Origin: a plasmid
Length of the DNA: 6,137 bases
Direction: 5' to 3' (one strand)
NCBI RefSeq assembly: GCF_055900595.2
Contig: NZ_PP320291.1
Positions within the stretch are counted from its first letter, which is position 1. Each line of letters opens with the position of its first letter. Below are positions 3,001 through 6,000 of the stretch, piece by piece. The position numbers are program-made.

Positions 3001-6000
3001 CGGACTTGTCCTTACCGCTATTGCTCGGCCTTCCCCCTCCCTTGGATACCTTGCCGCCCTTCGCACCTCTCCGGGCCTGCTCCTCTCTGAACCCTGCGGG
3101 GCTTAGGTGCTGGTGCGTCCATTTGGCAATGGACTTGGCCGTGTGCCGGACTTCGTTTGCGGGGAGCGGCTGCTCGAACTGGGCGTTATATCCTGATGCC
3201 CGGTCAACACAAGCGGCCAACCATTCGGGGTAATCCGGCCAGCCCTGCCGGATCGCTTTATAGGCCCACAGGCGCGTTTTCTCGAACAGGGTACAGTTTC
3301 GCCCAAGCCCGTACTCAGGAAGCGATTTGCGGCCATTGTAGGAGCTCAGATCGAGGTAATCGGATAGCCAGGCTAAATCGTAGAGCCGGGGTTCCCATAC
3401 CTGCACCAGCCAGTGCTCATGCAGGGGGTTCTTGCAGATCAGCCCGGAGTAGCCCATATCCGCCCCTAATTTCTCCCGGAGCGCGGCCTCGATGGCGGCG
3501 GCATACCGCAGAGGGGCTGCATTTCCATCCGGGGCAGTGCGGATCGGCGTATCCAGTCCGTAGATCAGATGCGCGTGGCCGTTGGCCTTGTTCGTGACGG
3601 TAATGTTAGGGGCTGGAGCGCCTACGTCATCCCAAGATAACGTAGCGGTTGCATGGTCTACGTCAAAAACGATCCAGTGGCGGTGCGTTGGCCCGTTCGG
3701 CTGGATGTAACGCGCACCAAGGGCGCGGGCAACATCCGCAATCCGTAGGCCCGTTGTAAGCTCGTCGGAATAGTAGGGTTTCCGGGGCAGGCGCTCCCGA
3801 AACAGCTCAAGCTGTGCGCACTTTCTCAAGCACCACCGCGCTTATTGGCGGCGTGGGGTTGTTTGGCATGATCCATGTGATAGACTTCTCTTGTGATTCG
3901 TCACGGCCCCCGTTTTTCGCAGCTCCGCCAAGATGCAAGCGATAACGGGGGTTGTCTTTTCTGGACAATACGTTACAGCAGGCACATCCTAGAGAGCAAC
4001 GTTAGTTGCATGTAACCTTTCACCCTGGAACATATTTCCACCTCCTTCTGCTTCTGCGCTGTTTTGAATTGCTTGATCTACGCCTCTAACTAGGTCGATC
4101 CTTGGGATTGAGTGGCACCATTGTCAGTGCAAGAATACTGATCCATATAAGTCTCTCTAGTCGGACAACACCAAGTGTTGAAGAGATCAAAAATCAACCT
4201 ATATCGGAGGATTCATGTCTGACATTGACAGATGCCCCCATGAAAGCAAAGCGAATGCGGTCCCAAAGCGCCTCTGTAGAAACGAATTTGAGCGAGGCAT
4301 TTGATGCCATCGTCTGCGTCCCAAGCGCCGGCAAGGACGGCCTGGTTGACCTATAGTAAACCGGTAGATGAAAATGATGGAGAACCAATATCAGCGCCTT
4401 CTTGGACTTTTTCGTCAAACGCTTTAGCAGCCAAGAAAGCCTACAATCCTTGATGGGCTAGGCACTTTATCGCAGCGGCATTCACCTTTACTGACATCGC
4501 CACTCCTTTATTCACACCCCCATGTTGAGTGACCATGGCCATTGAGATAACAAAAAAGCCTAGCAAATTGGCTAGGCTTTTTACGTTTAGGAATGTGATG
4601 CTAATGCTCAGGCTGAAAGTTAACGCGCGGAGCTTAAGTCGATTAGGCCTGACCGATTAAGTATGAGCCATTAACTACAAGCGCATCGAGCATCAGCATT
4701 TTGTCCATATATCTTTACAGCTTATATGACGGCTATTTCACACAAATACGCGCTAACCACTTCTAGGGAATAATTTTCTCCTGTTTGAGCACTTCTTTTG
4801 TGATGGCTTGGCGCAGCCCTAAACCATCCGATGTGGGCATATCCATATTCATCGCAAAAAACCACACATTATCATCAAGTTCAACCCAACCAACCCACCA
4901 GCCAATCTTAGGTTCGATACTAGTCGAGTATCCCGTTTTAGCCCGAATAATATAGTCGCCATTGGCTTCGGTCAGCATGGCTTGTTTCACGATGCGCTGA
5001 CTACGCTCAGAAACGTGCAGCTTGTTGTGATACAGCTTGCGTAAAAAAGCGATTTGCTGGGTAGCCGAAATGCGAATACCACCATCGAGCCAAAAACTGT
5101 CTACATTGCCCGAGATATCCTCATTGCCATAATCGAAGGCGTGCAGCATTTTACTCATACGTGCCTCACCAATTTGGCGGGCAAATTCTTGATAAACAGG
5201 CACAACTGAGTACTTCATCGCGGTAATTAAGTCATGGTCACGATTCCAAGCGGCGATATCACGCGTCTGTCCATCCCACTTAAAGACTTGGTGTTCATCC
5301 TTAACCACGCCCAAATCGAGGGCGATCAAGCTATTGGGAATTTTAAAGGTAGATGCGGGTAAAAATGCTTGGTTCGCCCGTTTAAGATTATTGGTAAATC
5401 CTTGCTGCTTATTCTCATTCCAGAGCACAACTACGCCCTGTGATTTATGTTCAGTAAAGTGAGCATTCCAACTTTTGTTTTCTTGCCATTCCTTTGCTAC
5501 CGCTGGCATTCCGATAATCGATGCCACCAAAAACACAGCCGATAAGGCTAATACACGCATAACGTCCCCTTGCTTAATGCAATATATCCATACAAATTAA
5601 GTGCTAAGCTTATCATTCTCTGCCCTCTCATTCCCTAGCAAACTGCTGACCAATTGTGGCAACAATCAGGCACAAGCTTTAACTATTACCTAAATTCCAC
5701 GTGTGTTTTTTATTAGCTTCAAAAATCACTATTTCACGAAGAATTTAGACTGCTTCTCACACATTGTAACATTATTTACAACCACCTTTCAATCATTTTT
5801 GATAAATCATTGATTTCATCTTTGCTGCAATGATACTTAATAAACTCTGCAAGTTATCCACAGAGCAACACTCAATTTTATTGATGATATTCTTAGGGGG
5901 AGTATGGGATTTTTTAACCTATCTAAAGCGCTTGAGGAGGTGTCTGATGCTTTTGGGGCTAAAGAAACCGCAATCGCTAGTGCCAAGTTGTTAGGTAAGG

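What the first reader, a model, noticed from the sequence alone, without database searches (positions are those of the whole stretch)
4763..5560. blaOXA-232 carbapenemase: OXA-181 background plus R214S
The ORF encodes an OXA-48-family enzyme with five substitutions versus OXA-48 (T104A, N110D, E168Q, S171A, R214S). The first four are the OXA-181 set; R214S (Ser codon AGT at 4919-4921) is the OXA-232 hallmark and sits in the beta5-beta6 loop that modulates carbapenem versus temocillin hydrolysis. This is clinically important and defines the plasmid type, though it is not novel.
Basis: partly seen in the sequence, partly recalled or inferred. Interest (0 to 1): 0.5.

Follow-up and report, generated by a model that had tools for sequence, protein, structure and literature searches.

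The report
Known carbapenemase gene blaOXA-232, confirmed
The ORF is an exact copy of the well-known antibiotic-resistance gene blaOXA-232 on its usual small 6.1-kb plasmid: clinically important, but already fully described.

Summary
Confirmed and ordinary. The ORF at 4763..5560 lies on the minus strand and encodes 265 aa. [quoted passage not shown] The gene is base-for-base identical to a RefSeq blaOXA-232 that AMRFinderPlus calls at 100%. Residues 23-265 are identical to PDB 5HFO.

Against OXA-48 (PDB 3HBR) the differences are exactly T104A, N110D, E168Q, S171A and R214S. Against blaOXA-181 there is one nucleotide change, AGA to AGT, at window base 4919.

The window is the whole ColKP3 pOXA-232 plasmid, canonically 6141 bp. 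It lacks four homopolymer bases and carries one private repA SNP.

The gene sits in a dead Tn2013 remnant. This consists of a 207-bp ISEcp1 right end carrying the promoter but no transposase, a Shewanella-derived segment, ΔlysR and ΔereA.

R214S lowers hydrolysis of both carbapenems and temocillin; it does not trade one for the other. The replicon, not the allele, defines the plasmid type. Nothing here is novel.

The parts
4763..5560 (-). blaOXA-232 coding sequence (265 codons plus TAG stop)
   Evidence: ORF. Exact-sequence look-up named OXA-232. No nucleotide difference from blaOXA-232 of NZ_CP033950.1. NCBIfam blaOXA-48_like 623.9 bits, cut-off 580.
4919..4921 (-). Codon 214, AGT = Ser. This is the only difference from blaOXA-181, which has AGA = Arg; the changed base is window 4919.
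   Evidence: Base-by-base comparison with the annotated blaOXA-181 in L002.
5495..5560 (-). Codons 1-22, the presumed Sec signal peptide (MRVLALSAVFLVASIIGMPAVA, then KEW)
   Evidence: Inference. The N-terminus is hydrophobic, and the crystallised mature chain 5HFO starts at K23.
5342..5353 (-). Codons 70-73, S-T-F-K: catalytic Ser70 and Lys73 (the carbamylated lysine). The other class D motifs are also intact: S118-V-V, Y144-G-N, W157, D159, K208-T-G.
   Evidence: Motif positions computed. The roles of these residues are established knowledge of class D beta-lactamases.
5565..5571 (-). Shine-Dalgarno-like AAGGGGA, ending 4 nt before the ATG
   Evidence: Read directly from the sequence. Its function is inferred.
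5763..5792 (-). Sigma-70-type promoter: -35 TTGAAA (5792-5787), 18-nt spacer, TG-extended -10 TACAAT (5768-5763). It lies inside the ISEcp1 remnant and faces bla.
   Evidence: Best site of the scan, 10 of 12 matches. It lies within the 207 bp identical to the ISEcp1 right end upstream of blaCTX-M-15. That this ISEcp1 outward promoter drives downstream bla genes is established knowledge, not tested here.
5689..5895 (-). ΔISEcp1: the 207-bp non-coding right end of ISEcp1, ending in IRR ACGTGGAATTTAGG (5702-5689). It starts at the base right after the tnpA stop codon, so IRL and the whole transposase gene are absent.
   Evidence: 207/207 identity to ISEcp1 of NZ_CP045278.1, where the tnpA CDS ends one base before the match.
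4384..5681 (-). Segment of Shewanella chromosomal origin: 121 bp upstream of bla, bla itself, the intergenic region and the lysR 3' end
   Evidence: 94.8% identity over 1298 bp to a Shewanella xiamenensis contig carrying an OXA-48-family gene and a convergent lysR.
4553..4582 (-). Perfect 12-bp hairpin flanked by A/T runs (AAAAAGCCTAGC-CAATTT-GCTAGGCTTTTT), about 180 nt after the bla stop. Likely a bidirectional terminator between the convergent bla and lysR.
   Evidence: Terminator scan. Also present at the corresponding place in the Shewanella contig. Its function is inferred.
4384..4461 (+). ΔlysR: the last 25 codons plus stop of the Shewanella LysR-type regulator gene
   Evidence: The window translation ...TNISAFLDFFVKRFSSQESLQSLMG* equals the C-terminus of the 303-aa HTH_1/LysR_substrate protein of L004.
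4204..4356 (+). ΔereA: the last 50 codons plus stop of an erythromycin esterase gene
   Evidence: NCBIfam NF000208 EreA, E = 4.5e-25, profile positions 359-408 of 408.
4200..4218 (-). Probable right end of Tn2013: degenerate ISEcp1-IRR-like ACATGAATCCTCCG (4218-4205; 8 of 14 matches to the IRR) followed by ATATA (4204-4200)
   Evidence: Read. It coincides with the point where EreA homology ends. [quoted passage not shown] Inferred, not independently tested.
2882..3829 (-). repA (315 aa, TTG start), the ColKP3-type replication initiator. It carries a private missense change A61T (GCC to ACC, window base 3649).
   Evidence: Annotation of NZ_CP033950.1. The SNP was found and the codon. None of the 294 matching PLSDB records has it.
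330..2103 (-). Mobilisation module. MbeA-like relaxase at 330-1784, with the nested ORFs 659-1096 and 386-658 (the latter MbeD family) in another frame, and MobC at 1765-2103.
   Evidence: NCBIfam relax_MbeA_E1 470 bits (below the cut-off of 500) and plas_excl_MbeD 77 bits (cut-off 60). RefSeq annotation. PLSDB typing: mobilizable, MOBP.

Best explanation
The ORF is an intact, expressed-looking copy of blaOXA-232, a class D (OXA-48-family) serine carbapenemase equal to OXA-181 with R214S. The precursor would be exported by its 22-residue signal peptide. In the periplasm, Ser70, activated by carbamylated Lys73, acylates the beta-lactam ring, and water deacylates it. Serine at 214 removes the Arg214-Asp159 salt bridge between the beta5-beta6 loop and the omega loop. 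Published kinetics put imipenem efficiency about 27-fold and temocillin efficiency about 10-fold below OXA-181, while penicillins are still hydrolysed well. Transcription most likely starts at the outward promoter in the 207-bp ISEcp1 right-end remnant, about 200 nt upstream. The gene can no longer transpose because IRL and the transposase are gone. It spreads with its carrier, the small mobilisable ColKP3 plasmid pOXA-232; the window is a complete copy of that plasmid. Shown here: allele identity, substitutions, intact motifs, promoter and remnant anatomy, plasmid identity. Inferred or taken from the literature: export, catalysis, kinetics, promoter use.
For: An exact-sequence look-up names the protein OXA-232. 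There are no nucleotide differences across 4763-5560 from NZ_CP033950.1, whose CDS is blaOXA-232 at 100% by AMRFinderPlus. Residues 23-265 are identical to PDB 5HFO, and the only difference from 5OE0 (OXA-181) is at residue 214. There are exactly five substitutions against OXA-48, and all class D motifs are intact. One base separates the gene from blaOXA-181. NCBIfam blaOXA-48_like is above its cut-off. The window covers the 6141-bp K. pneumoniae plasmids at 100% coverage and 99.9% identity. Promoter. ISEcp1 remnant. Shewanella origin and ΔlysR. ΔereA. The effects of R214S and the R214-D159 interaction are from PMC11278660 and PMC13231874. The plasmid structure ΔISEcp1-blaOXA-232-ΔlysR-ΔereA on a 6141-bp ColKP3 plasmid is described in PMC9560801.
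Against: Nothing in the sequence contradicts this. Expression, export and enzyme activity were not and cannot be measured here. The window shows signs of imperfect base-calling (four homopolymer contractions), so any single base is in principle slightly less certain. The diagnostic base at 4919 is not in a homopolymer, and the plasmid architecture independently fits pOXA-232.
Confidence: 0.97

Rival explanations
1. The gene is really blaOXA-181 (or blaOXA-484), and Ser214 is a sequencing error in a lower-quality, long-read-type assembly.
For: The window differs from the canonical plasmid by four 1-base homopolymer contractions and one SNP seen in no other record. This suggests an imperfect consensus.
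Against: The change at 4919 is a substitution outside any homopolymer, and it yields exactly the AGT of every reference blaOXA-232. The carrier is the transposase-less 6.1-kb pOXA-232 architecture. The ColKP3 OXA-181 plasmid pKP3-A is listed at 7.605 kb with ISEcp1 (PMC6764390), and the IncX3 OXA-181 plasmid keeps tnpA sequence upstream of the breakpoint.
Confidence: 0.02
2. The gene is intact but silent or poorly expressed, because truncation of ISEcp1 disabled its promoter.
For: Expression was not measured. Only 207 bp of ISEcp1 remain.
Against: The remnant retains the TTGAAA-18 nt-TACAAT promoter, the best-scoring site in the region. It also retains the same 128-bp spacer and the Shine-Dalgarno-like sequence. 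The architecture is identical in at least 118 PLSDB plasmid records, many from clinical Klebsiella pneumoniae isolates, and clinical OXA-232 producers are carbapenem-resistant (PMC9560801).
Confidence: 0.01

Closest known systems
OXA-232 (WP_043907054.1; UniProt M4JTK1; PDB 5HFO), first described by Potron et al. 2013, Int J Antimicrob Agents 41:325
   Same: Identical over all 265 residues and all 798 nucleotides. Same plasmid and same flanking remnants.
   Different: Nothing in the gene. The carrier differs from the canonical 6141-bp plasmid by four homopolymer bases and one repA SNP.
OXA-181 (WP_015060052.1; PDB 5OE0)
   Same: 264 of 265 residues and 797 of 798 nucleotides. Same ISEcp1 right end, Shewanella flank, ΔlysR and ΔereA.
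   Different: Arg214 (AGA) instead of Ser214 (AGT). Published catalytic efficiency is higher for imipenem (550 vs 20 mM-1 s-1) and temocillin (5 vs 0.5 mM-1 s-1). It is usually carried on IncX3 or on the 7.6-kb pKP3-A plasmid with ISEcp1.
OXA-484 (OXA-181 R214G) and OXA-244 (OXA-48 R214G)
   Same: Same position mutated, same loss of the R214-D159 salt bridge, and the same weak carbapenem/temocillin phenotype that is hard to detect.
   Different: Gly rather than Ser at 214. The R214G variants gain piperacillin hydrolysis and raise piperacillin-tazobactam MICs, whereas OXA-232 lowers these MICs (PMC13231874).
OXA-48 (PDB 3HBR)
   Same: 260 of 265 residues, with the same fold and catalytic motifs.
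   Different: Five substitutions (T104A, N110D, E168Q, S171A, R214S). OXA-48 is typically carried on Tn1999 in IncL plasmids.
Tn2013 (ISEcp1-blaOXA-181-ΔlysR-ΔereA) on pKP3-A
   Same: Same captured Shewanella segment, ΔlysR, ΔereA, right-end junction and ISEcp1 right end with promoter.
   Different: IRL and the whole tnpA are deleted here. It is therefore a fossil of the transposon, not a functional unit.

Membership tests
Class D (OXA) serine beta-lactamases | Conserved motifs S70-x-x-K73, S118-x-V, Y144-G-N and K208-T-G, plus W157 | tested here: met
   STFK at 70, SVV at 118, YGN at 144, KTG at 208, W157-L-D159. NCBIfam bla_class_D_main 320.5 bits, cut-off 250.
OXA-48 family | Score at or above the curated cut-off of NCBIfam NF000387 blaOXA-48_like over the full length | tested here: met
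   623.9 bits against a cut-off of 580, residues 1-265 on profile positions 1-265. 260 of 265 residues are identical to OXA-48.
OXA-232 allele | 100% identity over the full 265 aa to the reference allele protein | tested here: met
   An exact look-up returns the name OXA-232. The DNA is identical to the CDS of WP_043907054.1, called blaOXA-232 at 100% by AMRFinderPlus. The mature part is identical to PDB 5HFO.
OXA-232 allele | OXA-181 sequence with Ser at position 214 | tested here: met
   A single nucleotide difference from the annotated blaOXA-181: AGA to AGT at codon 214.
[quoted passage not shown] | Measurable hydrolysis of carbapenems | not testable with these tools
   Published kinetics exist for the identical protein: imipenem kcat/Km 20 mM-1 s-1 (Table 3 of PMC11278660).
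pOXA-232-type ColKP3 plasmid | About 6.1 kb, with ColKP3 repA, mobA-D/mobC, ΔISEcp1, blaOXA-232, ΔlysR and ΔereA in the canonical order | tested here: met
   100% coverage and 99.9% identity to many 6141-bp K. pneumoniae plasmids. Only five differences from NZ_CP033950.1. Structure as described in PMC9560801.
Tn2013 (functional ISEcp1 transposition unit) | Complete ISEcp1 (IRL, tnpA, IRR) upstream of the captured segment | tested here: not met
   Only the last 207 bp of ISEcp1 remain, starting right after the tnpA stop codon. The unit is a remnant.

The most novel reading that the evidence does not exclude
The only features not already in the databases are in the carrier, not in the gene. They are a RepA A61T missense change absent from all 294 matching PLSDB records, and four 1-base contractions of G/C runs in the non-coding regions flanking repA. 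If these are real rather than base-calling errors, they could alter replication control and copy number of pOXA-232, and hence the level of OXA-232-mediated resistance.
Probability: 0.05. Interest if true: 0.15.

Novelty: already known. Interest (0 to 1): 0.08.

Why it matters
OXA-232 is a globally spreading carbapenemase of Klebsiella pneumoniae high-risk clones (ST231, ST15, ST2096). Its weak temocillin and imipenem hydrolysis makes producers easy to miss on selective media and in Carba NP-type tests (PMC11278660, PMC9622251). Identifying it correctly therefore matters for surveillance and therapy. For discovery purposes it adds nothing: gene, enzyme structure, kinetics, plasmid and genetic context are all published.

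Tried and rejected
1. I tried to fetch pKP3-A (JN205800) as the OXA-181 ColKP3 comparator, but it is not in the collections. I used an IncX3 blaOXA-181 plasmid (L002) and an ISEcp1-blaCTX-M-15 plasmid (L003) instead.
2. NCBIfam on stop-to-stop translations of 3830-4762 found ΔereA but no LysR signal. ΔlysR was recovered only by aligning to a Shewanella xiamenensis contig.
3. Rfam at gathering thresholds found no RNA family anywhere in the window, so no annotated replication-control RNA was detected.
4. PHROGs gave nothing for the 93-aa and 38-aa backbone ORFs, the VbhA-like ORF or MobC.
5. I considered and rejected the idea that Ser214 is a sequencing artefact, and the idea that the gene is silent (see the rival explanations).
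6. I asked whether the four homopolymer contractions avoid coding regions more than chance would predict. Four of the seven G/C runs of 6 or more bases are contracted, and all four lie among the five non-coding runs; by my hand calculation from the runs listed, the chance of that is about 0.14. This is not informative.

Full report
**Observation**

The window has a 265-codon ATG ORF at 4763..5560 on the minus strand. The ATG is at 5560-5558 and the TAG stop at 4765-4763. I aligned the protein to the OXA-48 sequence printed for PDB 3HBR and counted by script. The differences are exactly T104A, N110D, E168Q, S171A and R214S. The codons are GCT 5249-5251, GAC 5231-5233, CAG 5057-5059, GCT 5048-5050 and AGT 4919-4921. 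The ORF is not a chance ORF: it scores 623.9 bits (E = 2.4e-188) against NCBIfam NF000387 blaOXA-48_like, above the curated cut-off of 580, matching end to end.

**Allele identity**

Three independent routes agree.
- The whole window matches many 6141-bp Klebsiella pneumoniae plasmids at 100% coverage and 99.9% identity. In one of them, NZ_CP033950.1, the corresponding CDS is WP_043907054.1, and PLSDB's AMRFinderPlus call is blaOXA-232 at 100%. A base-by-base alignment shows no difference anywhere in 4763-5560.
- Residues 23-265 are identical to PDB chain 5HFO_A. To my recollection 5HFO is the OXA-232 structure; the tool gives only "Beta-lactamase".

The best full-length PDB match, 5OE0, is named the OXA-181 structure in PMC11278660. 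It differs only at residue 214, R versus S. Against an annotated blaOXA-181 in an IncX3 plasmid (L002), the gene differs by one nucleotide: nt 642, AGA to AGT, window base 4919. The alternative alleles at this position are excluded, because OXA-181 has Arg and OXA-484 has Gly.

**Enzyme features**

The class D motifs are intact: S70-T-F-K73, S118-V-V, Y144-G-N, W157, D159 and K208-T-G. The beta5-beta6 loop region reads Y211-S-T-S214-I-E-P-K. The first 22 residues look like a Sec signal peptide, and the crystallised chain starts at K23; this cleavage site is an inference.

The mechanism is established knowledge, not tested here. Ser70 is the nucleophile and carbamylated Lys73 the general base. 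R214 normally forms a salt bridge with D159 that shapes the active site and contacts the temocillin carboxylate (PMC11278660 and PMC13231874).

Published kcat/Km values for OXA-181 and OXA-232 (Table 3 of PMC11278660), in mM-1 s-1:

| Substrate | OXA-181 | OXA-232 |
|---|---|---|
| Imipenem | 550 | 20 |
| Temocillin | 5 | 0.5 |
| Meropenem | 1.5 | 0.3 |
| Ertapenem | 2 | 0.4 |

R214S therefore weakens hydrolysis of both drug classes.

**Expression signals**

A Shine-Dalgarno-like AAGGGGA (5571-5565) precedes the ATG. The best promoter-like site in 4500-6137 is on the bla strand: TTGAAA (5792-5787), an 18-nt spacer, and a TG-extended TACAAT (5768-5763). It lies inside a 207-bp stretch (5895 to 5689, minus strand) that is 207/207 identical to the right end of ISEcp1 upstream of blaCTX-M-15 in NZ_CP045278.1. 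That stretch ends in the IRR ACGTGGAATTTAGG. That this ISEcp1 promoter drives captured bla genes is established knowledge; its use here is inferred.

**Genetic context**

The ISEcp1 remnant begins at the base immediately after the tnpA stop codon, so IRL and the entire transposase are gone. The IncX3 blaOXA-181 plasmid, by contrast, still has tnpA sequence upstream of that point.

Window 5681-4384 is 94.8% identical over 1298 bp to a Shewanella xiamenensis contig that carries an OXA-48-family gene and a convergent lysR. The homology stops 78 nt into the 3' end of lysR. The window's plus strand 4384-4461 encodes ...TNISAFLDFFVKRFSSQESLQSLMG*, which is identical to the LysR C-terminus; this is ΔlysR.

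A perfect hairpin with flanking A/T runs at 4582-4553 sits between the convergent genes and is also present in Shewanella. Plus strand 4204-4356 encodes the last 50 residues of EreA (NF000208, E = 4.5e-25); this is ΔereA. Just beyond it lie a degenerate IRR-like 14-mer (4218-4205) and ATATA (4204-4200). This fits the right-hand TSD reported for truncated Tn2013 in PMC9560801, but it is inferred here.

The arrangement ΔISEcp1-blaOXA-232-ΔlysR-ΔereA on a 6141-bp ColKP3 non-conjugative plasmid is exactly what the literature describes (PMC9560801; PMC6764390).

**The carrier**

The window is a full circular permutation of pOXA-232. The gene content is:
- repA at 2882-3829 (-).
- A VbhA-domain ORF at 2085-2504 (-) (Pfam PF18495, E = 3.6e-07).
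- mobC at 1765-2103 (-).
- An MbeA-like relaxase at 330-1784 (-), with nested MbeD-family and mobB-like ORFs.
- A 93-aa hypothetical ORF that crosses the window ends.

Relative to NZ_CP033950.1 the window lacks one base in each of four G/C homopolymers, at 2564, 2736, 2842 and 3947, all non-coding. It also has one substitution at 3649. That substitution makes RepA A61T and is present in none of the 294 PLSDB records matching that segment. The homopolymer pattern is what long-read consensus errors look like. Records of 6136 and 6139 bp also exist. I cannot tell error from real variation without reads. No Rfam family reaches its threshold.

**Comparison and verdict**

The gene is OXA-232 itself, not merely a relative. 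All membership criteria that can be tested in silico are met. The one criterion not met concerns Tn2013 as a functional transposon, which is known to be truncated in this plasmid.

Novelty: already known. The gene is clinically significant, because it is a hard-to-detect carbapenemase in high-risk K. pneumoniae clones, but it is scientifically unsurprising. The only unrecorded features are the repA SNP and the homopolymer contractions in the backbone, which are most likely sequencing noise.

Noticed in passing
window 1-6137 (whole): The window is a complete circular permutation of the canonical 6141-bp pOXA-232 ColKP3 plasmid. It is 4 bases shorter because of 1-base contractions of G/C homopolymers at 2564 (G7 to G6), 2736 (C6 to C5), 2842 (C6 to C5) and 3947 (G6 to G5), all non-coding. 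This looks like long-read consensus error, but that is unproven.
   Followed up: yes
window 3649 (repA codon 61, minus strand): A private substitution, GCC to ACC, giving RepA A61T. None of the 294 PLSDB records matching 3600-3700 has it; the best identity is 99.0%. It is either a real private variant of the replication initiator or a base-calling error.
   Followed up: partly
window 5895/5896: The ISEcp1 truncation breakpoint falls exactly one base after the tnpA stop codon, leaving only the 207-bp non-coding right end with promoter and IRR. The bla gene is thereby immobilised but keeps its promoter.
   Followed up: yes
window 2085-2504 (-): A 139-aa ORF with a VbhA antitoxin domain (Pfam PF18495, residues 20-61, E = 3.6e-07). 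No Fic/VbhT-type toxin gene appears anywhere on the plasmid, so it is an orphan antitoxin-like gene of unknown role.
   Followed up: partly
window 5904-6137 joined to 1-48 (+): A 93-aa hypothetical ORF (WP_043907053.1 in RefSeq) runs across the window ends and abuts the ISEcp1 breakpoint. It has no PHROGs match. The ORF listing cannot see it because it crosses the linearisation point. A further 38-aa ORF (MSDSDFKNSPEYDD...) follows it.
   Followed up: partly
window 330-1784 (-), with 659-1096 and 386-658 nested: The relaxase resembles ColE1 MbeA but scores below the NCBIfam cut-off (470 vs 500 bits). Two ORFs are nested within it in another frame, one of them MbeD family at 77 bits. This is the ColE1-like overlapping mobB/mobD arrangement.
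   Followed up: partly
L002 (NZ_CP103490.1, IncX3 blaOXA-181 plasmid) vs window 3951-5895: The IncX3 OXA-181 plasmid shares the ISEcp1 right end, the bla flank, ΔlysR and ΔereA, and continues into the ColKP3 repA region. It is typed IncX3 plus rep_cluster_1195. This shows that a chunk of a ColKP3 plasmid is embedded in the IncX3 plasmid.
   Followed up: partly
literature vs window codons 104 and 168: PMC11278660 lists the OXA-181 substitutions as T103A and E169Q. Direct alignment to OXA-48 gives T104A and E168Q. This is a numbering inconsistency in the literature, not a sequence difference.
   Followed up: yes
window 4553-4582: A perfect 12-bp-stem hairpin flanked by A5 and T5 runs lies between the convergent bla and ΔlysR. 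It is conserved in the Shewanella xiamenensis chromosome and is probably a bidirectional intrinsic terminator captured along with the gene.
   Followed up: partly
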